In this document: positions 9,535 through 62,974 of the stretch, one piece after another
How the letters are laid out: the number at the start of each line of letters is the position of its first letter
Position numbering within the stretch: the stretch's first letter is position 1
Made by a program: the position numbers and the translations under genes
Notes under the pieces: model-generated
The model's database searches: none
The model's input: only the letters and a program-made list of their open reading frames with translations
Told to the model about the DNA's origin: nothing
NCBI GenBank assembly: GCA_043756005.1
Contig: JAYUTB010000008.1
Coordinates: 2,316-66,315, forward strand
Origin: Spiroplasmataceae bacterium
GTDB lineage: Bacteria > Bacillota_I > Bacilli_A > Mycoplasmatales > JAYUTB01
DNA length: 64,000 nucleotides
Direction of reading: 5' to 3'

Positions 9535-10881
9535 ATGATCAAAAAATATAAAAAAGTCGCAACAATCATGATTTTTCAAAAAAAAATCAAACCGAACACA
9601 ATGATCCATATTGATGGTACCGTGTCAACAAACCGTAACAGCGGTAAAATTGGTTTTATAGCAATCACTGATGGATTAAGTTTAACAACCATTCAAGTTG
9701 TTTATAAAATCGAAACCATAGCTAATTTTAATAACATTAAACATATTTTAACTGGCAGTTCCGTTAGTGTGTTTGGAACATTAATCAACACCAAAACCTG
9801 AGAAATTCAAGCCGATCAAATAATTATCTTAAACGCTACCGATGAGCATTATTTATTACAAAAAAAACACCATTCTTTAGAATTGTTAAGAACACAACCT
9901 CATTTACGATCAAAAACCAAAACTTTTTATTGTATCTTTAAAATTAGAAGTGTGGTTTGTCAATTAATTCATCAATTTTTTATGAAACATCAGTTTGTGT
10001 TAGTTAATAACCCAATTATGACTAAAAATAATTGTGAAAGTGGTGCCGAAACTTTTGCCATGAATGCAAAAAATAATGATCAGTTTTTCAAAAAAATGGA
10101 TCATTATTTTTTAACAGCAAGTGGTCAATTAGAATGTGAAGCGTTTGCACAAGCATTCAATAAAACATATACATTTGGACCAGTGTTTCGAGCTGAAAAA
10201 TCAAACACTTCAGTACATGCTGCTGAATTTTGAATGGTTGAATTTGAAATAATTAATGGCTTAGTAAAAGATTTAATTAAATGAACAGAAAAACTGATTA
10301 AATTTATTATTAAAAATGTATTAAAACATTATAACGCAGAAATGAATTATTTGGCCAGTAAATATGATGTCGATCTCATTAATAATTTAACAAACATTGT
10401 TAAACATAAATTTAAAATTATTTCATATCAACAAGCCATTAATTTACTAAAAAAAGCTCAAAACGTAACATTTCAATATTCTCACCTTGCGTTTGGAGTT
10501 GATTTACAAAAAGAACATGAAAAATATCTCTGTCATTTGTTTAAAAAACCAGTTTTTATCTATAATTTTCCAAGTGGTATTAAATCTTTTTATATGAAAC
10601 ACAATGCCGATCAACAAACTGTGGCTTCGGTAGATTTATTAATACCAATGATTGGTGAATTAATGGGCGGTAGTGAACGAACCAGTGATATTAATCAATT
10701 ATATAAGCAAATGATTGCTAAACATATTGATCCAGCACATTATGAATGATATTTAAATTTAAGAAAATCCGGATATATAAAAACAGCTGGTTTTGGTTTA
10801 GGATTAGATCGACTATTAATGTTACTTACTGGCATGAAAAACATTCGTGATGTGATACCATTTCCAATTACTTATGAATAA
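9535..10881 (+). CDS. asnS: asparagine--tRNA ligase
   Basis: Three track ORFs in one frame. N-terminal OB fold and class II motifs including [23 protein letters not shown] at 10879-10881. Confidence 0.9.
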
Positions 10882-10886
10882 ATGAA

Positions 10887-12374
<1,488 letters not shown>

Positions 12375-21710: not shown

Positions 21711-23249
21711 TTATAAAAGTGCCTCAAACAATAGCAATAACTTTACCATAACTTTATGTGGTAATTTTAAAGTAAAATGCTTTGCTTGCACAATATAAGC
21801 TAATGAAAAATTTTGCATAAAAATATTTGCTAGCGTTTGATTAACCATTAAACCAAATGTCATCATCGACGTTTGATGATCATGAAAAAAACTTCGATAA
21901 TCCATGTTGGAAGTGGTTACTAACGAAAAATCATCATCAAATAAAATAGTTTTAGCATGATTAAAGACATGACTTGATTCATATATTTTAACACCAGCTA
22001 ATAATAAATCATCATAATAAGTGCGTGACAAGTCTAATAAAAGTATTTTATCAGTTACGTTAGGCATTAAAATTCGAACATCTACACCTGATATAGCAGC
22101 ATTTTTTAAAGCAATAACAATATCATTTGGTACAATTAAATAAGGGGTAGAAATTCAAATTCTTTGTTGCGTAGTATTAATAAATTTTAATAATAAATCT
22201 TTATAAATAATTTCAGTAATGTGGGGGCCGGTACCGATCACTTGATTAAAATTAATTGTTGTTAAATCTAAATTAGCTGATAATAGATTATTTTTTAATA
22301 ATATTGGTAAAGGTAAATGTTGTTTAGTTAATTCATATCAATCTTTTAAAAATATTAAGGCTAATGAGGTGACGGCACCACCTGTAATGCGTACTTGCAT
22401 ATCTTGTCAACAACCATATTTAGCCGATAAATTAATATAATTATCACCAATATTATACCCACCAGTATATCCAATAACGCCATCAATAATCACATCTTTA
22501 CGATGACACCGATAATTAGTTTTGTAACTAAAAAATGGTCAAGTAACATAATTGTAAAAACAAATTTCAATACCAATATTTTTCATGTTGCGTAAATTTT
22601 TATTAAACAAACCAAATCATGAACCAAAATGATCAAGGATTAAATAAATTTTAACGCCTTCACGATATTTTCTAATTAATAACGCTTCAAATGCTTTAAA
22701 ATAATAACCGTCATGAATAATAAAATAATTTAAATAAATAAATTTTTGAGCATTTGCAATGTCTTCAAACAATGCAAAAAACTTATCAATCCCATTATCA
22801 ATTAATTTAAATGTTAAATTTTGATAAAAAGGAAATTTTGTATAATTAGTCACAAAATTAATTAATAAGCTTTGCCTAGTTGATAAATCATGATTGTTAA
22901 GTAATCATTGCGTATCAGTTCATTGTTCATGATCAAATCACAATTTTTCTGCTAATAACACTTGGTCATATGTTTTACGACCTTGATATTTTTTATTAAA
23001 AATAATAAATCAAAACAGGCCAAGCATTGAAAAAACATTAATGATTAAAAATCAAGTTATTTTAAAACATGAATCACGTTTTAAATAAAAAATATATCAG
23101 GTACAACCAAAAATTAAGCAATAATTAACTAAAAAATAAATTCATAGATAACGAAGGGGAATAAAATAAAAAATACAAAAATAAAATCCACACGTTAATG
23201 CTAAAAATAAAAAAATGGTAAAAAATACAAAAAATAATTTTTGTTTAAT
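21711..23249 (-). CDS. cls: cardiolipin synthase (phospholipase D family)
   Basis: Two HKD motifs (HRKDVIIDG... and HAKTILFDDDFSLVTTSNMDYRS) and N-terminal TM helices. The pieces are joined by TGA. No in-frame ATG precedes the TM helices; the likely start is ATT (comp. 23247-23249), 8 nt after GAGGAAG. Confidence 0.85.
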
Positions 23250-23297
23250 AGTTTAATCTTCCTCTTGATAAGCTTTTTAAAAAAATATCAATTAATA

Positions 23298-23390
23298 TGG
23301 TGGAGTAAGGGGGATTTGAACCCACGCGTCATTTGCACAACCTACCTCATTAGCAGCGAGGCCTCTTCAACCGAACTTGAGTATTACTCC
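23298..23390 (-). tRNA. tRNA-Ser (anticodon GCU)
   Basis: The reverse strand GGAGTAATACTCAAG...CCTCG-CTGCTAA-TGAGG...GGGTTCAAATCCCCCTTACTCCACCA gives a cloverleaf with a long variable arm, anticodon loop CU-GCU-AA and an encoded CCA. Confidence 0.92.
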
Positions 23391-23665
23391 AATCATTACT
23401 AACGCACTAAAAAATTATAAAACAATCTTAGTTTGTTAAAATAATTATATATACATTATAAAAATAATAACAAACGACATGCACATAGAACACAATATTC
23501 AATTGTAATGTTTTAAAAACGAGTAATTCAAATTAAAAACATAAAAGAAAATTATTAAGATTTGTCTCTTTAACAAATGTTTCACTAAAGTGGGTATATT
23601 CACATGTTAGTGAATTCAAACGATATTGTTCAATTGTTTTTTATTTATCAAAAAATCATAAAAAT

Positions 23666-23697: not shown

Positions 23698-25343
23698 ATG
23701 TTTATGAACAAATTACTTAAATTATTCCCGATTGCAATAATTGCGCCTATGTTGGCGTTGACTTTTACTTCAGCAGTTGTTACACCTAAAGCTGAGGGTC
23801 ATTTTAAATATATTAACAACTCCATTACATTTAATGGTAAAACTTATTCAACCGATAATTTCAACTCACACAATCAAAGAATTTTAAAAATCAGTAGTGT
23901 GGAAATTATTATTGATAAACCGACAAAAGATTTTGTTTTTTACACAATTAATGGTGTTGATTATTTATATGTTGAAAAACAAAACACACTAATTAATTTA
24001 TCAACCAGTACAAAAGATTCTTACGTAATATATGGTGGAAAACTAAAAGTTTTTAATATCTTGGGGGGGTAGATTATATATTATATTGATATGGATCGCA
24101 CTGAATTTTTTCAACCATCGATCACCTAAAATATTGATACCCTACTGATGAAGTAAATTCTGTTGAAATTCTTGATGGCACTCACATTCAATTGAAATTG
24201 AATAATTCAAAATATGTTTGTTTAAATTTAAACTTACACAATAAAGTTATATCAAGTGATAATTCATTTTGAAAAGTATTTATTGATAATGAAACTGTAT
24301 TTTTAGGATATATATTTTATAATGCTGATTTAAATGAGCATCCAATTTTTAAAACTCCAATATATATGTCTGTATGAGAATACTCAAATATATACATTAA
24401 AAAAGACTTATCTGGGGGCTTGTTTGATTTCACAACAAGACTTACTTCAAAATCTATACAAAAATGCTCGTCTTATAAACCAATAACAATTGACGGCATT
24501 AAATTATTCATGGTAACTGTTGATAATAAACAAGAATTTTATGATGTTGATTTAAATAAAAAAGATGAATACAGTATTAAAATTCTTCACAATAACAATT
24601 ACATTGAACGAACTGTTGCTGATGTTAAAACGTTATTCAAGTTTGATGATGGCGCAAAAATTACATCAATCCTAGATTACAAAAAACTTGAAGAACGAAC
24701 CGTTGATACCGTTAAATTATTAATGGTAACTGATGCAAGTGATGGTGTAAAATTTTATAAGGATAGCGATCAAGCTTTAAATGGTAACTACACAACAATC
24801 AAACCGCAAGACACAAAGTACATTAAACGAACCGTTGATGGTGTGAAAACTTTATTCAAACTTGATGGCACATCAATTACAGATTACAAAGAACTTGAAC
24901 CACGAACGATTGATACCGTTAAATTATTGATGATAACTGATGCAAGTGACAATGTAGCATTTTATAACGATAACGATCAAGTTTTAAATAAAAACTACAA
25001 GTCAAGCACTCTGCATAACACAACTTACATTGAACAAACCGTTGGTGATGTTAAAACGTTATTCAAATTTGATGATGGCGCAAAAATTACAACAATCTCA
25101 AATTACGAAAGCATTAAACCAATAAAAAGCTTATTTAAAAAGAAATACTTAGAAGTAACTAACATTGAAAAAACAGTTGATTGATATAGTAGTATTAGTG
25201 AAGGCAAAAAAGATGATTTTAAAAAAACCTCTGGTATTATAAAATATCAGACTCCAATTGTAATTGGAGCTTCGGTTGGTTCAGTAAGTGTTGGTGCTTT
25301 AATTACTGCATTAATTTTAATTATTAAAAAACGTAAAAAATAA
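23698..25343 (+). CDS. variable surface protein, split by a frameshift at a G7 tract (apparent OFF state)
   Basis: The signal-peptide ORF 23698-24072 stops just after G7. The frame starting at 24069 is open (TGA=Trp) to TAA 25341-25343 and ends in a TM helix plus KKRKK. One extra G fuses the two parts (about 548 aa). Confidence 0.75.
24063..24069 (+). repeat. poly-G (G7) homopolymer at the frameshift point
   Basis: The sequence CTTGGGGGGGTAG can be read directly. Confidence 0.95.
24601..25110 (+). repeat. coding tandem repeats of about 205-220 nt (YIExTVxDVKTLFKxDG...TVDTVKLLM[VI]TDASD)
   Basis: About 2.4 units are visible in both protein and DNA (24601, 24823 and 25027 all begin TACATT[GA]AAC[GA]AAC). 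Confidence 0.85.
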
Positions 25344-25629
25344 ATAATAATCATTTACCAACATTAGCACAACTTGTCAATATTTGAATTTTATTAAAGT
25401 TATCCACGAGCATTATTTGATTTTAAAATTTTATGAATCAATGTTAGTTAATAAAATCTTTATATTACCAGTTAATGGTGTTATAGCGTATGCTAAACGA
25501 GTAAATAATGTTTAAAATTCTTAACAAATATCAATTGATGATTATGTCATATTAATAATAGCTTAAAAAATAATATAAGTTTTTGTTAAAGCTTGGTTAA
25601 TATAAAATGTAATGATAAAAGTTATTTTC

Positions 25630-25661: not shown

Positions 25662-25780
25662 TACTAGCAATTGATAGATAAGTTGAGTTTATTATGGTTC
25701 AGCCGTTCCTTGATCAATATTTGATGTTGTTATGATAAAAATATCTTCTTTTACATAAGTTGTTTTTACTTTTTATATAT

Positions 25781-26353
25781 AAAAAGGAAATTTTGTATAA
25801 TTAGTCACAAAATTAATTAATAAGCGTTACCTAGTTGATAAATCAGGATTGTTAAGTAATCATTGCGTATCAGTTCATTGTTCATGATCAAATCACAATT
25901 TTTCTGCTAATAACACTTGATCATATGTTTGACGGCCTTTATAGTTTTTATTAAAAATAATAAATCAAGTTATTTTAAAACATGAATCATGTTTTAAATA
26001 AAAAATATATCAGGTACAACCAAAAATTAAACAATAATTAACTAAAAAATAAATTCATAGATAACGAAGGGGAATAAAATAAAAAAATGGTAAAAAATAC
26101 AAAAAATAATTTTTGTTTAATAGTTTAATCTTCCTCTTGATAAGTTTTTTTAAAAAAATATCAACTAATATTGTTGAATAAGGGGATTTGAGCCCATCCG
26201 TCATTTGCACAACCTACCTCATTAGCAGCGAGGCCTCTTCAATCGAACTTAAGTATTACTCAAATCATTACTAACGTACTAAAAAATTATAAATAATCTT
26301 AGTTTGTTAAAATAATTATATATACATTATAAAAATAATAACAAATGACATTC
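25781..26353. repeat. degenerate second copy of 22826-23483 (cls 5' end + tRNA-Ser + flank)
   Basis: The two regions align by eye along their whole length, with scattered substitutions and two deletions of about 40 bp. The copies are direct repeats bracketing 23484-25780. Confidence 0.9.
26171..26262 (-). pseudogene. tRNA-Ser(GCU) relic inside the duplicated segment
   Basis: The anticodon arm is identical to the 23298-23390 copy. The 3' CCA is changed to ACA, the acceptor stem is altered, and the T-loop reads GCTCAAAT instead of GTTCAAAT. Confidence 0.65.
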
Positions 26354-26516
26354 AATAAAGACAACAACAATAACACCAGATAAAGCTAATTTTTTTAAAA
26401 AATTAATTACTAATAATTCTTTGTTATGCATAAAATGAATAACAATTTAATTAATCTTTGAAATTATAAATAATTAATAAAACTCAAATCGCTTTTATAA
26501 CAATTTGTTTGTATAT

Positions 26517-49780: not shown

Positions 49781-50659
49781 TTATTTACCATAACCAATAA
49801 AAACAATACACCCTGGTCCGACATGAGCGGTAATTGTGTTAGCAAGTCGGAGGTATGAAATATTTTTAATACCTTTGCGCATAGCAAGTTCATGCGCAAA
49901 TATTTTTGATGATTCAATGTCTTGAGCTTGTGAATAAGCAATGACTAAATTATCAATTTGATTAACATCACCATGAAATGTAATTAATGCGTTTAAAGCT
50001 TTGTCACAAGCAAATTTAAATGTTCGTGACATTTGATATTTATGAATACCTTTTAATGAATATTCTAAAATAACTTTAAATTGGATGAGGTCAAGAATTT
50101 CAGTGGCTGATTTAATGAAACGACCACCTTCTTGAATAAAGCTAATATTAAATGGTATAAAATAAGCAGAAGTTAGACTTCGTAGCGTTACTACATACTT
50201 ACAAATTTTGATAAAGCTAAAGTTAGGTAAATTAATTAAGGCATTTACTTTTAAAACAATATTTTTTAAGATTGGACCAGCAGCATTAGCATCAATTAAT
50301 AAAACTTTATTTTTATACTTTTTTTGAGTTTCTAAGTATTTTTTAACGACACCATATTGTGAAGATAATAATGAGTCAATCGGTATATAAATAATTTGAT
50401 CATAATCGATTAATAGTTCATCAAAGGTTGCAATTAATGTATTAATTGGTACAAAACTAGTACTAATTTTACTATTAATGTTATTAGCTAATAATTCATC
50501 AAACGGATTAGCACTTTCTAAATCACCTTCATCATCAAAACTAATATGTTGCGCATGATTATCAAACATTATCGTTAATGGCAGTACTTTAATATTATAA
50601 AAAGCTGGTTCATTATTTAATAAATTAGCTGATGAATCGGTAACAATAATTCTTTTCAT
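49781..50659 (-). CDS. DegV-family fatty-acid-binding protein
   Basis: MKRIIVTDSSANL... at the N-terminus, with length and pattern typical of DegV. Confidence 0.85.
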   Translation of the reverse strand: MKRIIVTDSSANLLNNEPAFYNIKVLPLTIMFDNHAQHISFDDEGDLESANPFDELLANNINSKISTSFVPINTLIATFDELLIDYDQIIYIPIDSLLSSQYGVVKKYLETQKKYKNKVLLIDANAAGPILKNIVLKVNALINLPNFSFIKICKYVVTLRSLTSAYFIPFNISFIQEGGRFIKSATEILDLIQFKVILEYSLKGIHKYQMSRTFKFACDKALNALITFHGDVNQIDNLVIAYSQAQDIESSKIFAHELAMRKGIKNISYLRLANTITAHVGPGCIVFIGYGK

Positions 50660-50692
50660 AAATAATATTTATCTAATTATAACATTATATTT

Positions 50693-51652
50693 ATGATTAT
50701 TTTTCGGTATTATATTAAACATAACAATGGTATTTTTAACAATCATCTAAAGGATATTGACAAAATTAAAACATTAACAAATAAATTATTACGTGGCGAA
50801 GTGGTTGTTAAAAACATTAAACAGCAATGTTTAGCATTTCAAAAGTTATATTTAGCAGATATAAAGCTAAATATGACGATTATTAAGTTTAATAACTGCA
50901 ATGATTCAATTAACTCTTATATTGATAATATTGTTAAAACATGCACGGCAATGGATATTAATTATCATATTAACACTCTTGATGCACTAACCATAACCGA
51001 AACGCAATTCATTGATATGATTAAATCATTAAATGAGCAATCAGCAATACATGGTTATATCATTCCCTTACCATTACCATTCACTATCAATATGAATAAC
51101 ATTTATCAATCTATCGCACCGCTGAAAGATGTTGATGGATGTTCCCTAATTAATTTAGGTCAATTAATTAAACAACAACCACCATTAATTGTACCCGCTA
51201 CCGCGGCAGCAGTCTTAAGGCTCATAAACCATTATCAAATTAAGCTGATCAACACTTACGTAGTAATTGTGGGAGCTAGTATGCAAGTTGGCAAACCATT
51301 AGCTAATTTATTATGACAACATCATGCAATCGTAACCATTTGTAATATCTTAACAAAGAATTTAAAAACATATACGCAACAAGCCGACATATTAATTGTG
51401 GCAGTTGGAAAAATTAATTTAATTACCCGTGATATGGTTAAAGTAGGATCAATAGTAATTGATATTGGTTGTAATTATAATGATCAAGCAACATTAGTCG
51501 GTGATGTTGATTTTGCAGCAATTAAAGATCACGTAGCGGGCATCACGCCGGTACCCGGCGGCATTGGCCCAATTACAAGTATCATGTTGATGATGAATTT
51601 ATTAAAACTTTATGCTCATCAACATCAATTACCAACTGATTTATTAGATTAA
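50693..51652 (+). CDS. folD: bifunctional methylenetetrahydrofolate dehydrogenase/cyclohydrolase
   Basis: [30 protein letters not shown] and [11 protein letters not shown] motifs. Two track ORFs are joined by TGA. The N-terminal about 25 aa look like an extension, so the start is uncertain. Confidence 0.85.
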
Positions 51653-51777
51653 TAAAAATTATAGGTGTAACGTTTTAAAAAAGAGTAATTTAAAGTAAAC
51701 ACAATCATTATATTTTCCTTTTATAAAGGTAGTTTTATTAGATTTTTTGTATCTTTTAAATAATAAAAAATCTAATA

Positions 51778-51854
51778 CTAAAGCGTATGCTAAACGAGTA
51801 ATCGAAATTTGTCTCTTTAACAAATTTCGATTACTCGTTTAGCATACGCTTTAG
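51778..51854. repeat. 77-nt palindromic element (35-bp perfect stem, 7-nt loop)
   Basis: CTAAAGCGTATGCTAAACGAGTAATCGAAATTTGT-CTCTTTA-ACAAATTTCGATTACTCGTTTAGCATACGCTTTAG. Partial copies lie at 23517-23578 and 25485-25529. It sits between convergent genes, so it may also act as a terminator. Confidence 0.9.
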
Positions 51855-52226
51855 GGGTGGTTTTTTACCAAATCATTTTGCTAATAAAGTTGGTGCTTTA
51901 GTGGTAACAATGTTAACGGCTCGTTCTAACAACACTTTATTTTCTTCTTCTAAGTCTAATTTACGTTGTGTAGCTTTTTTAATAAAACTTAAGTAAGTAG
52001 CTTGACAAAAACTGTTAAAGGTTAACGAAAGAAAAATTGAAAATAAGGCTTGATAAGCAAAGATACGATAATTAATTACTGGAGATGATGGATTTGTTTT
52101 CATGATTTGGTTAATTAATACGATTCAGATTATTAAAAAAATGATTGATAACAAAAATGAACATCCAAATACCACCAACACATATTTAACGTTATGTTTA
52201 TGAAAATGATTTAAAATATTATGCAT
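51831..52226 (-). CDS. small hypothetical membrane protein (131 aa)
   Basis: ATG at 52226. Two hydrophobic helices. Track ORF 51873-52103 extends through TGA; its last 8 codons lie in the right arm of the palindrome. Confidence 0.45.
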
Positions 52227-52255
52227 TTAATGGCTGTATAAAAATGTATTTAATA

Positions 52256-52331
52256 TGGTACCCACGATAAGACTTGAACTTATGGCCACATACTTAGAAG
52301 GCATGTGCTCTATCCACTGAGCTACGTGGGC
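52256..52331 (-). tRNA. tRNA-Arg (anticodon UCU)
   Basis: The reverse strand GCCCACGTAGCTCAGTGGATAGAGCACATGCCTTCTAAGTATGTGGCCATAAGTTCAAGTCTTATCGTGGGTACCA gives a clean cloverleaf with anticodon loop CU-UCU-AA. Confidence 0.92.
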
Positions 52332-52377
52332 ATGTAGACATGCTTTGGATAAACTAATTGTAAATTATTTTTAATAT

Positions 52378-53697
52378 TTATGAATTATTTTGTCACAAAA
52401 ATTCAAAAACTAAATTTTCTTTCATTTTTTCAGTTACAATTTTTCGAAATTGTTCCACATTATTTGGATCTAAAGAACCTTCAATGTTTTTTAAATCTTC
52501 ACTGTTAAAATGATTTGGCATATCCATTTTTTCTAATTTAAAAATTTCAGCAACCATTAATTTGATCACAAATTTTCGTTCAGCATCAACAATTAATTCT
52601 TGATCAATCGCTTCTTCAGATAATTTTGTAAATAATCGATATTCATTATAAGTAATTTGTTTTGTCTTTAATTTGCCAATAAATTCCTCTTTAAGAGCGG
52701 GTAATTCTTGCATAATCACCGCTTCAGCAATATTTACTTTACTTTTATCAAAAATTAATTCAATAATTTTTTCATGAAAGGCATCTTTGACTAATAAAGT
52801 TGCTTCTTTTTCGATTTGTTGTTTGATTCAATCAACACATGCTTGTTCGGTAATATGTTTGGTTTTATAGAAAGTATTAAATTTATTTAAAAAAACTTCA
52901 TTGATGGCAAGAGGTGGCAATACACAAATCTTTTGGATTTCGACAATTAATTCAATTTTTTTAGCAGTTTGTTCTTCAAACTGAGGTATGTCAAATACAA
53001 TTTTGTTTATTGACCCAACTTTTTGATTGAGAGTGGTTTTTAAAAAATGATTAACAAATAATTGTTCATATTCGTTAGTTTTATGCAAAATTGCTGTATC
53101 AAGAATAATCATTTTTTGTTCATTCATAAAATCTTGAATTAAAAACTTTAAAAATACATTAGTAACTGCTGATGCTTCAACAATTCTAAAAAAAACTACA
53201 TCACCATGGGCAATAGTTGCTTTTTCAAGTGTAGGAGTTGGTAGATATTTATGCAATAAAACATTGATTTCGGTAGCAACGGCTTCATCACTGATGGGCG
53301 GAATTTCTTTAGAAATCCCCGTTTTTAAACCTTTATATTTACCAATCTTAATGGTAGGTGTTAATGCAAAATTAAAATGTAATTCACATTCTTTATCATC
53401 AGCTTTGATAATATCAATTGATGGTCTATTATAAGGAACAATGATGGCATTTTCAAGGATTGCTTGCTCATAAGCTTTATGAGCAAAGAGATTGATGGCT
53501 TTATTAACAAGTTGCGTTGTGGTTAAATACCCACTTGCTAAATCTAATGGGGCCTTTCCTGGACGAAAGCCAGGCACAGTTACTGATTCAACTAATTTTG
53601 CTTTAGCTTCATCCATGACCGCTTGTCATGTTGCACCATCAATATTAGCAATATATTGACCGGTGGTATTTTCAATATTTTTAGCCGTAATTTTCAT
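52378..53697 (-). CDS. tig: trigger factor
   Basis: The N-terminal ribosome-binding motif GFRPGKAP is present. Track ORFs 52393-52719 and 52828-53616 share one frame. It extends through TGA to TAA 52378. Confidence 0.88.
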
Positions 53698-62818: not shown

Positions 62819-62974
62819 TGTTAAAATAGGTAGTTGTTATTAACAAGCATAAAAATTAAATCTGGATTCACGTGATTATTAATAAAGTTCGGAGGTTATC
62901 AATGGGTGACTAAAGCAGTTTTAAGAATTGGCTTTTGTTTTTATGCTTGTTAATAACAACTACCTATTTTAACA
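62819..62974. repeat. 156-nt element: 37-bp perfect inverted repeat around an 82-nt loop
   Basis: The left arm 62819-62855 (TGTTAAAATAGGTAGTTGTTATTAACAAGCATAAAAA) is the exact reverse complement of the right arm 62938-62974. Confidence 0.95.

What the first reader, a model, noticed from the sequence alone, without database searches (positions are those of the whole stretch)
51778..51854. 77-nt element with a 35-bp perfect stem; relics of it flank the phase-variable gene 28 kb away
A 35-bp perfect inverted repeat is extraordinary in this genome. The element sits between convergent folD and a small membrane gene, whose last 8 codons are encoded by its right arm.

Pieces of the same sequence occur in the same orientation on both sides of the 23698-25343 gene:
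- AAACGAGTAAT ... ATTTGTCTCTTTAACAAAT at 23517-23578 (19-nt exact match to the loop region).
- AGCGTATGCTAAACGAGTAA ... CTTAACAAAT at 25485-25529 (20-nt exact match to the left arm).

So this is a dispersed element family. It could be a REP/MITE-like palindrome, a recombinase site or a cassette boundary, rather than just a terminator.
Basis: seen in the sequence. Interest (0 to 1): 0.6.

Follow-up and report, generated by a model that had tools for sequence, protein, structure and literature searches.

The report
Perfect hairpin from insertion-sequence end repeats
A 77-base perfect hairpin between two converging genes of an uncultured mycoplasma-like bacterium is the only intact two-armed copy of a small, decaying repeat family that most likely descends from the end of the genome's single insertion sequence; it is real and tidy, but of an ordinary kind.

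Summary
Window 51778-51812 and 51820-51854 form a perfect 35-bp inverted repeat with a 7-nt loop. It is the longest perfect hairpin in the 0.5-Mb genome; the next is 23 bp. The two partial matches beside the 23698-25343 gene are real.

A whole-genome search found five more loci, giving 8 loci and 9 arms. All arms share one sharp outer boundary, (C/T)TA(A/T)AGCG. They run inward for variable lengths of 25-79 nt, and their flanks are unrelated. Six loci lie beside or inside surface-protein genes.

One of the two longest copies matches the palindrome at 48 of 48 bases. It lies 90 nt beyond the stop codon of the only transposase found in the assembly, an IS3-type rve protein of 429 aa, with its tip pointing outward.

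My best reading (about 0.5) is that these are relics of an insertion-sequence terminal repeat. The window copy would be a probably immobile mini-element, now serving as an RNA hairpin at the 3' ends of two convergent transcription units. It also supplies the last 7 codons and the stop of a small membrane ORF.

Against this, there is no second IS end and no target duplication, and most copies have one arm. No close relative exists, and the tool for finding sequencing runs was closed. The scan had not noted this element before.

The parts
51778..51812 (+). Left arm of the palindrome (35 nt). Its outer end coincides with the family's common boundary.
51813..51819 (+). 7-nt loop CTCTTTA. Read on the - strand (TAAAGAG), it is the loop of the small 6-bp hairpin ATTTGT/ACAAAT found in the 79-nt units on contigs C13 and C10.
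51820..51854 (+). Right arm (35 nt). Read on the - strand together with the loop, it is 48/48 identical to the copy beside the transposase (C13:20954-21001). It also encodes LKRMLNE plus the stop of the small ORF.
51736..51777 (.). Second, AT-only hairpin directly abutting the left arm: 13-bp perfect arms at 51736-51748 and 51765-51777 with a 16-nt loop. Origin unexplained.
51831..52226 (-). 131-aa hydrophobic ORF (TGA=Trp) with no Pfam match. It is the last gene of the tig-tRNA-ORF string and ends inside the right arm.
50693..51652 (+). folD (319 aa). Its stop is 125 nt upstream of the palindrome.
23517..23534 (+). Relic A, arm piece AAACGAGTAATTCAAATT (16/18 to arm positions 15-32). It is inverted relative to, and directly abuts, the inner end of the unit piece listed next.
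23531..23580 (-). Relic A, inner part of the 79-nt unit (unit positions 29-78), 98% identical to the C13 copy. Its own arm has decayed. It lies 33 nt beyond the end of cls/tRNA-Ser duplication copy 1 and about 120 nt upstream of the surface-gene start.
25482..25513 (+). Relic B, a single arm (TATAGCG-type tip) 139 nt downstream of the surface-gene stop codon.

Best explanation
The repeat family is what remains of the terminal inverted repeat of an IS3-type insertion sequence. One transposase gene of that type survives, on contig C13.

Most copies are single-end relics: the IS tip is kept and the inside is deleted to varying depths. The window copy keeps two 35-nt ends, tips outward, joined across the end's own small hairpin. 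The joint falls inside the 6-nt microhomology ACAAAT. It therefore arose either by internal deletion of a full element (the way type I MITEs form) or by fold-back copying of one end; the sequence cannot tell these apart.

The copy lacks a TG tip and a target duplication, so it is probably no longer mobile.

What it does today is inferred, not shown. Transcribed from either strand, it folds into a hairpin of about -60 kcal/mol at the meeting point of two convergent transcription units. There it would stop or stabilise transcript 3' ends, and it is a plausible RNase III substrate. It also gives the small membrane ORF its last seven residues and its stop codon.
For: - Family structure: 8 loci with 9 arms share one outer boundary within 1-3 nt, have inner ends at 25, 33, 40, 48 and 79 nt, and have no significant flank homology.
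- Link to the transposase: the only rve transposase in the assembly is C13:21121-22410(-), 429 aa, with HTH_21, rve and rve_3 domains. By inspection of the sequence its DDE motifs read FTDTT, HSDRGSEF and IIEKYF...K. Its stop codon is 90 nt from the inner end of a 79-nt copy whose tip points outward, as expected for a right-end repeat. My rough estimate of the chance of such a placement is about 0.003 (8 loci x 170 nt / 0.5 Mb, correct orientation).
- Recent copying: that copy and the palindrome are 48/48 identical, while the other copies differ by 6-20%. The youngest copying event therefore links the transposase-adjacent copy to the window.
- No other candidate enzyme: eight other transposase or recombinase families gave no match.
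- Insertion into a gene: copy C4:3642-3673 sits inside a surface-protein coding repeat, in register, and replaces about 16 nt. This is what insertion followed by microhomology deletion would leave.
- Size: a 35-nt arm fits IS3-family end repeats of 20-40 bp (established knowledge).
- Hairpin strength and uniqueness. RNase III is encoded at C10:57333.
Against: - No matching left-end repeat lies upstream of the transposase start: best local score 48, against 41.8 +/- 3.7 for shuffles.
- No target-site duplication flanks the palindrome (ATA on the left, GGG on the right).
- The TG that precedes the C13 tip is absent from the palindrome, and its spacing varies in the other copies.
- Six of the 8 loci have no detectable second arm.
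- C10 and relic A both end near unit position 79. That is unexpected for independent random deletions.
- Nothing between position 79 and the transposase stop is repeated elsewhere.
- The terminator scan finds no canonical intrinsic terminator here, because the U6 runs start 7 nt after the stem on both strands.
Confidence: 0.5

Rival explanations
1. An independent palindromic repeat, REP-like or a mobile terminator, that has nothing to do with the transposase. The IS3-type element merely inserted beside one copy; some IS3-family members such as IS1397 target palindromic units. The family would have spread with, or been tolerated around, surface-protein genes.
For: - No left-end repeat lies beside the transposase.
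- The repeated unit stops 90 nt short of the transposase gene, and C10 and relic A end at the same unit position, about 79.
- Six of 8 loci lie in surface-gene intergenic DNA, some 75-140 nt after a stop codon.
Against: - No Y1/RAYT-type transposase is present.
- There are only 8 loci, and most have one arm.
- It does not explain the sharp outer boundary combined with variable inner ends, the copy inside a coding repeat, or why the transposase-adjacent copy is the one identical to the palindrome.
Confidence: 0.2
2. The repeat is ordinary paralogous intergenic DNA of the surface-gene family: a single-armed unit carrying a weak 6-bp hairpin. At the folD junction a replication template switch (fold-back at ATTTGT/ACAAAT) turned a quasi-palindrome into a perfect 35-bp one. 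The same process was proposed for the other long inverted repeat in this window.
For: - The single-armed 79-nt units contain the seed hairpin ATTTGT-TAAAGAG-ACAAAT, and the palindrome is exactly that hairpin extended.
- The arms are 35/35 identical, which points to a recent event.
- C10 and C13b sit at like positions in paralogous intergenic regions.
Against: - Both arms of the palindrome stop within 0-3 nt of the family's common outer boundary. That would be a coincidence for a fold-back, which should run on into unique flank.
- A recent copy from the C13-type sequence to a housekeeping junction on another contig is still needed.
- The rest of the unit (positions 49-79) leaves no trace beside the palindrome (z = -0.35).
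- Flanks of the copies are otherwise not homologous.
Confidence: 0.17
3. The arms are recombination sites that mark the boundaries of movable surface-gene cassettes. The lone transposase, which has a fused reading frame and no left end, would be a domesticated recombinase that acts on them.
For: - The copies are enriched at surface-protein genes.
- Relics A and B lie near both ends of the 2.3-kb surface-gene segment between the duplicated cls/tRNA-Ser copies.
- There is a single intact transposase gene without a recognisable second end, next to a 1394-aa surface gene.
Against: - The copies are at inconsistent positions and orientations relative to gene starts and stops.
- They are decayed to different lengths, whereas functional sites should be conserved.
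- No alternative junctions are available to inspect.
- No tyrosine or serine recombinase of the kind used by known mycoplasma switching systems is present.
- The best copy sits at a housekeeping junction.
Confidence: 0.06
4. Assembly artefact: a chimeric or fold-back join created the perfect palindrome.
For: Perfect palindromes can arise from amplification chimeras.
Against: - The palindrome sits in the middle of a 67-kb contig with unique, coding flanks on both sides.
- The small ORF ends neatly inside it.
- A separately built Logan unitig of run SRR23617201 runs from folD 30 nt into the left arm at 100% identity and stops there, as expected where a repeated 31-mer begins. This run may hold the same reads as the assembly.
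Confidence: 0.03

Closest known systems
Type I (IS-derived) bacterial MITEs, e.g. MITEAba12 of Acinetobacter (PMC6382973); general definition in PMC11602168
   Same: It is short and non-coding, with long terminal inverted repeats that match the end of a co-resident insertion sequence. It lies at gene ends and can supply stop codons.
   Different: It has no target-site duplication. Only one complete and one half-decayed two-armed copy exist, and copy number is very low. The parent IS shows only one matching end. The arms make up almost the whole element (35 + 7 + 35).
Correia repeat-enclosed elements of Neisseria (from memory; cited within PMC6382973)
   Same: A reconstructed long form of about 106 nt (arm, 26-nt middle, small hairpin, arm) would be of similar size and shape. 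Correia elements sit in transcripts, are cut by RNase III and can terminate or promote transcription; that is the kind of effect proposed here. The tip of the older copies (TATAGCG...) looks superficially like the Correia tip.
   Different: Correia elements number in the hundreds, have TA duplications, and no parent IS is known for them. The tip resemblance was not tested and is probably chance. No locus here carries the full long form.
Solo terminal-repeat relics of insertion sequences in reduced, host-restricted genomes
   Same: The outer (tip) boundary is sharp and the inner truncation varies. The copies diverge from one another, and a single remaining transposase gene is present.
   Different: Two relics end at the same inner position (about 79), and one relic carries an inverted arm abutting that position.
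Template-switch (quasi-palindrome correction) mutations
   Same: A short pre-existing inverted repeat (ATTTGT/ACAAAT) sits exactly at the centre of a longer perfect one.
   Different: The arm ends coincide with the repeat family's boundary instead of running into unique flank.
Bidirectional intrinsic terminators between convergent genes
   Same: It is a strong hairpin at a convergent junction, with an A-run upstream and a T-run downstream. The genome has canonical examples, such as C1:111340-111378.
   Different: The stem is 35 bp at 34% GC, against the usual 5-20 bp GC-rich stem. The U runs start 7 nt from the stem, and the scan does not call it. The median fold energy across 36 convergent junctions is only -6.3 kcal/mol.

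Membership tests
MITE (miniature inverted-repeat transposable element) | Terminal inverted repeats of at least 10-15 bp (PMC11602168) | tested here: met
   35-bp perfect arms.
MITE (miniature inverted-repeat transposable element) | Small (50-800 bp) with no transposase gene inside | tested here: met
   77 nt in total; only the tail of a flanking ORF overlaps it.
MITE (miniature inverted-repeat transposable element) | Target-site duplication of 2-10 bp flanking the element | tested here: not met
   The flanks are ...TCTAATA on the left and GGGGTGG... on the right. No direct repeat appears at any plausible boundary.
MITE (miniature inverted-repeat transposable element) | Several dispersed copies of the complete two-ended element | tested here: not met
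   Only the window copy is complete. Relic A keeps part of a second arm. Six loci show no second arm (z < 1.7).
MITE (miniature inverted-repeat transposable element) | Terminal repeats identical or similar to those of a co-resident IS that can mobilise it | tested here: inconclusive
   The arm is identical to the sequence 90-170 nt beyond the 3' end of the only transposase gene. No matching repeat lies at the 5' side.
IS3-family insertion sequence (the C13 element) | Transposase with an rve DDE core plus N-terminal helix-turn-helix | tested here: met
   Pfam rve E = 1e-13, rve_3 E = 2.5e-7, HTH_21 E = 4e-4. The nearest named homologue is an IS3 family transposase; identities are 32% or lower.
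IS3-family insertion sequence (the C13 element) | Two imperfect terminal inverted repeats ending 5'-TG...CA-3' | tested here: not met
   A TG precedes the C13 tip (agTGACTAAAG), but no left repeat was found within 890 nt upstream of the start codon.
Canonical intrinsic (Rho-independent) terminator | GC-rich stem of about 5-20 bp followed at once by a U run | tested here: not met
   The scan finds 0 sites in 50500-52500. The stem is 35 bp at 34% GC, and the U6 run starts 7 nt downstream on each strand.
REP/BIME elements with RAYT transposase | A Y1 (RAYT) transposase gene and many short imperfect palindromes | tested here: not met
   No Y1_Tnp match; only 8 loci. The assembly is 89% complete.
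Site-specific inversion sites of mycoplasma variable surface-gene loci (vis/RS type) | A Xer-like tyrosine recombinase gene, with a conserved site at a fixed place in the 5' region of each variable gene | tested here: not met
   No Phage_integrase or Resolvase match. Copies lie upstream of, downstream of and inside genes, in both orientations.
Template-switch (quasi-palindrome) product | A perfect inverted repeat centred on a pre-existing short inverted repeat of a single-copy template | tested here: inconclusive
   The seed hairpin is present in the single-armed units. The arms end at the family boundary, and no remainder of the unit lies beside the palindrome.

The most novel reading that the evidence does not exclude
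The arms are working recognition sites for the lone transposase, which has a fused reading frame and no left end. That transposase would have been domesticated to cut, join or invert DNA at surface-protein gene boundaries. This would be a transposase-derived antigen-shuffling system in a mollicute lineage that lacks the Xer-type recombinases other mycoplasmas use for this purpose.
Probability: 0.06. Interest if true: 0.75.

Novelty: new member of a known kind. Interest (0 to 1): 0.3.

Why it matters
It adds an IS-end-derived palindromic repeat to a deep-branching mollicute lineage that has no sequenced close relatives; the nearest genomes held share only the order. It shows in miniature how a dying insertion sequence leaves material that the host may reuse: a transcript-end hairpin, a new C-terminus for a small protein, and a disrupted surface-protein gene. 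For annotation, it explains why assemblies of this organism break at these sites. It also marks the 3' end of the small ORF as element-derived. It does not reveal a new mechanism unless the low-probability domesticated-recombinase reading turns out to be true.

Tried and rejected
- Scan of genome contigs with the 16-mer TATGCTAAACGAGTAA: 80 single hits in unrelated phyla, as chance predicts for a 16-mer in 596 Gb. Uninformative and a wasted scan.
- Forty same-order relatives searched with a 106-nt reconstructed long form: only weak AT-rich hits to the middle part, none to the arm.
- Metagenome scan with a 24-nt arm pattern: 0 hits.
- Phage and plasmid collections: nothing, or AT-rich chance hits only.
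- Rfam: only sub-threshold microRNA-hairpin look-alikes over the palindrome.
- Earlier notes of this scan, searched by sequence: nothing.
- Left IS end upstream of the transposase: not found.
- Second arms next to the single-armed copies: not found.
- Homology of outer flanks between copies: none with z > 2.5.
- Remainder of the unit beside the palindrome: none in the expected orientation.
- The arm as a decayed piece of the surface-protein coding repeat, or the unit's middle as a relic of the ...KKRKK* gene end: both were suggestive by eye. Neither is picked up by nhmmer at E <= 10, so I dropped both.
- The arm as an outward promoter: TTGATT-N17-TATAAT is present in the C10 copy and faces a surface gene 135 nt away. 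Only 2 of 8 copies face a gene start, so I did not pursue it.
- Exact-protein look-ups for the small ORF and trigger factor: not on record.

Full report
**1. The observation**

Window 51778-51854 reads CTAAAGCGTATGCTAAACGAGTAATCGAAATTTGT-CTCTTTA-ACAAATTTCGATTACTCGTTTAGCATACGCTTTAG. This is a perfect 35-bp inverted repeat around a 7-nt loop. As RNA it folds at -60.8 kcal/mol on the + strand and -62.0 on the - strand, with z about -15.5 against dinucleotide shuffles.

I counted all perfect hairpins with loops of 12 nt or less in the whole assembly (501,793 bp, 15 contigs, about 28% GC). There are 76 with stems of 14 bp or more. This one is the longest by far; the next is 23 bp at 8% GC.

The genome reads TGA as Trp, because folD is intact only under table 4. 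The element lies between folD (50693-51652, +) and a 131-aa hydrophobic ORF (51831-52226, -). That ORF follows trigger factor and a tRNA on the - strand. Its last seven sense codons and its stop (CTA AAG CGT ATG CTA AAC GAG TAA, giving LKRMLNE*) are the right arm read on the - strand.

**2. The relics and the family**

The exact 20-mer at 25485-25504 and the exact 19-mer at 23560-23578 are confirmed, with blastn E = 2.7e-5 and 1.1e-4 over the whole genome. No match to the 20-mer appeared in 100 shuffles of the window.

The whole genome holds more copies. I built a profile from them, and nhmmer run without filters recovers exactly these and nothing else below E = 0.1:

| Locus | Position | E-value | Length / note |
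|---|---|---|---|
| C13a | C13:20953-21030 | 1.4e-22 | 79-nt unit |
| C10 | C10:11500-11576 | 5e-21 | 79-nt unit |
| Palindrome | both arms | - | window copy |
| C7 | C7:2197-2236 | 1e-8 | 40 nt |
| Relic A | window 23531-23580, - strand | 1.3e-8 | 50 nt |
| C4 | C4:3642-3673 | 1e-6 | 32 nt |
| Relic B | window 25482-25513 | 3.1e-5 | 32 nt |
| C13b | C13:10380-10416, - strand | 1.4e-4 | 37 nt |

That gives 8 loci and 9 arms.

With every arm oriented the same way, the copies start within 1-3 nt of one another at (C/T)TA(A/T)AGCG. They run inward for 25, 33, 40, 48 or 79 nt. Their outer flanks show no significant similarity: no pair reaches z > 2.5. Their wider flanks share only the conserved ends of surface-protein genes.

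The two 79-nt copies show what lies inside the arm:
- the small hairpin ATTTGT-TAAAGAG-ACAAAT;
- then CTTAATAATTTTCTTTTACGTTTTTAATTT.

The palindrome read on its - strand is 48/48 identical to the C13 copy up to ACAAAT. It then turns back into the reverse complement of the arm.

Relic A carries unit positions 29-78. Directly abutting position 79, overlapping in AATTT, it has an 18-nt arm piece in the inverted sense (16/18). So a second, longer two-armed form once existed. No other copy has a detectable second arm.

**3. Surroundings of the copies**

Six of the 8 loci touch members of the KTLY-repeat, C-terminally anchored surface-protein family:
- C13a is 311 nt downstream of a 1394-aa member.
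- C13b and C10 each lie between two members, 74-92 nt after one stop codon and 125-135 nt before the next start.
- Relics A and B flank the frame-shifted member at 23698-25343.
- C4 lies inside a member.

A crude motif count finds about 19 such ORFs, covering about 5% of the genome. The association is therefore far from random, although some copies (C10 and C13b) may have been duplicated along with their genes. C7 follows a different signal-peptide repeat protein. Only the palindrome sits at a housekeeping junction.

In C4 the arm is embedded in register within a coding repeat. About 16 nt (coding ...NLDLKN...) are replaced by the arm core plus 4 nt. Short matches at both joints (TATA and CAAAATT) accompany this, and the frame is broken.

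Relics A and B sit 33 nt and about 240 nt inside the two ends of the 2.3-kb segment that separates the duplicated cls-5'/tRNA-Ser copies (22816-23483 and 25771-26354).

**4. The transposase**

Ninety nt beyond the inner end of the C13 79-nt copy lies the stop codon of a 429-aa ORF (C13:21121-22410, - strand). It has Pfam rve (1e-13), rve_3, rve_2, HTH_21 and HTH_28 domains. Its homologues are IS3/InsO-type transposases at 32% identity or lower. By eye it carries the D, D and E motifs (FTDTT, HSDRGSEF, IIEKYF with K seven residues on).

It is the only rve match in the assembly and is single-copy at both DNA and protein level. I searched eight other families: Phage_integrase, Resolvase, Y1_Tnp, DDE_Tnp_1, Transposase_mut, the TnpB zinc-ribbon domain, DEDD_Tnp_IS110 and DDE_3. 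None gave a match. The caveat is that the assembly is 89% complete.

The tip of the adjacent repeat copy points away from the gene and is preceded by TG, as expected for the right end of an IS3-family element. Tip to start codon is 1,460 nt, a normal size for that family. By my rough estimate, a chance placement like this has a probability of about 0.003.

Against this, no matching left end exists within 890 nt upstream of the start codon. Nothing between unit position 79 and the stop codon is repeated elsewhere.

**5. How the palindrome formed**

The joint between the '48-nt end' and the inverted arm lies within ACAAAT. That hexamer is both unit positions 43-48 and the complement of positions 30-35. 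Two routes give exactly this sequence:
- deletion between two direct ACAAAT copies of a full element with identical 35-nt ends (type I MITE formation, PMC6382973);
- fold-back of a nascent strand on the small hairpin, followed by copying of the arm (a template switch).

The same ambiguity holds for relic A, where the microhomology is AATTT.

I lean to the two-ended origin, because both arms of the palindrome stop at the family's common tip rather than running into unique flank. In addition, no trace of unit positions 49-79 lies beside it.

The element fails two MITE criteria. It has no target duplication (ATA versus GGG), and there are no further complete copies. A second, AT-only 13-bp hairpin (51736-51748 / 51765-51777) abuts the left arm and remains unexplained.

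**6. What it does now (inferred)**

Any transcript crossing 51778-51854 in either direction will form a 35-bp helix.

On the + strand the A6 run upstream pairs with the U6 run downstream and lengthens the helix. However, the right-hand T-run is simply the Lys-Lys-Pro-Pro coding sequence of the small ORF.

The consensus scan calls no intrinsic terminator, because the U runs begin 7 nt after the stem. Most of the 36 convergent junctions in this genome have little structure, with a median of -6.3 kcal/mol.

A role as a transcript-end barrier, and as an RNase III substrate (rnc is present at C10:57333), is therefore plausible but untested. The effect on the small ORF is direct: its C-terminus and stop are element-encoded.

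**7. Outside evidence**

The nearest genomes held share only the order, and none carries the arm. Metagenome, plasmid, phage and Rfam searches were negative.

Two Logan unitigs of run SRR23617201 match the assembly at 100%. They end 30 nt into the left arm and 38 nt into the C13 unit, as expected where repeated 31-mers begin. This is weak support for the assembly, since the run may be the assembly's own source.

**8. Verdict**

- Most likely (about 0.5): relics of an IS3-type terminal repeat, with the window copy a dead two-ended mini-element reused as a hairpin and a stop codon.
- Independent palindromic repeat beside which the IS inserted: 0.2.
- Paralogous intergenic unit made perfect by template switching: 0.17.
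- Recombination sites for a domesticated transposase: 0.06.
- Assembly artefact: 0.03.

This is a new member of a known kind and of modest interest.

Noticed in passing
G000 contig C13:21121-22410 (- strand), outside the window: This is the only transposase gene found in the assembly. It is IS3-type, 429 aa, with a fused reading frame and DDE motifs intact by eye. No left terminal repeat lies within 890 nt upstream. It sits between a 1394-aa surface-protein gene and small unknown ORFs.
   Followed up: partly
G000 contig C4:3555-3762, outside the window: A 32-nt arm copy is embedded in register within a KTLY-type coding repeat of a surface-protein gene. It replaces about 16 nt and breaks the frame. 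Short matches (TATA, CAAAATT) sit at both joints.
   Followed up: partly
G000 contig C10:11440-11500, outside the window: A run of eight C lies in the 135-nt stretch between the repeat tip and the start of the surface-protein gene at 9941-11365(-). In this copy the arm read outward gives TTGATT-N17-TATAAT facing that gene. Together these may be a slippage tract and an element-borne promoter.
   Followed up: no
window 51736-51777: A perfect AT-only 13-bp inverted repeat with a 16-nt spacer has its second arm directly abutting the left arm of the big palindrome. Its origin is unexplained.
   Followed up: no
whole assembly G000: Profile searches found no tyrosine recombinase (Xer/integrase type) and no serine recombinase in this 89%-complete genome.
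   Followed up: partly
window 62819-62974: A second long inverted repeat (42-nt arms, 95% complementary, 72 nt apart) lies here.
   Followed up: partly
G000 contig C7:2431-5649, outside the window: A 1072-aa ORF directly downstream of the C7 arm copy looks, from motifs seen by eye, like a fused helicase-methyltransferase restriction enzyme (type ISP/IIG-like). I did not test this with profiles.
   Followed up: no
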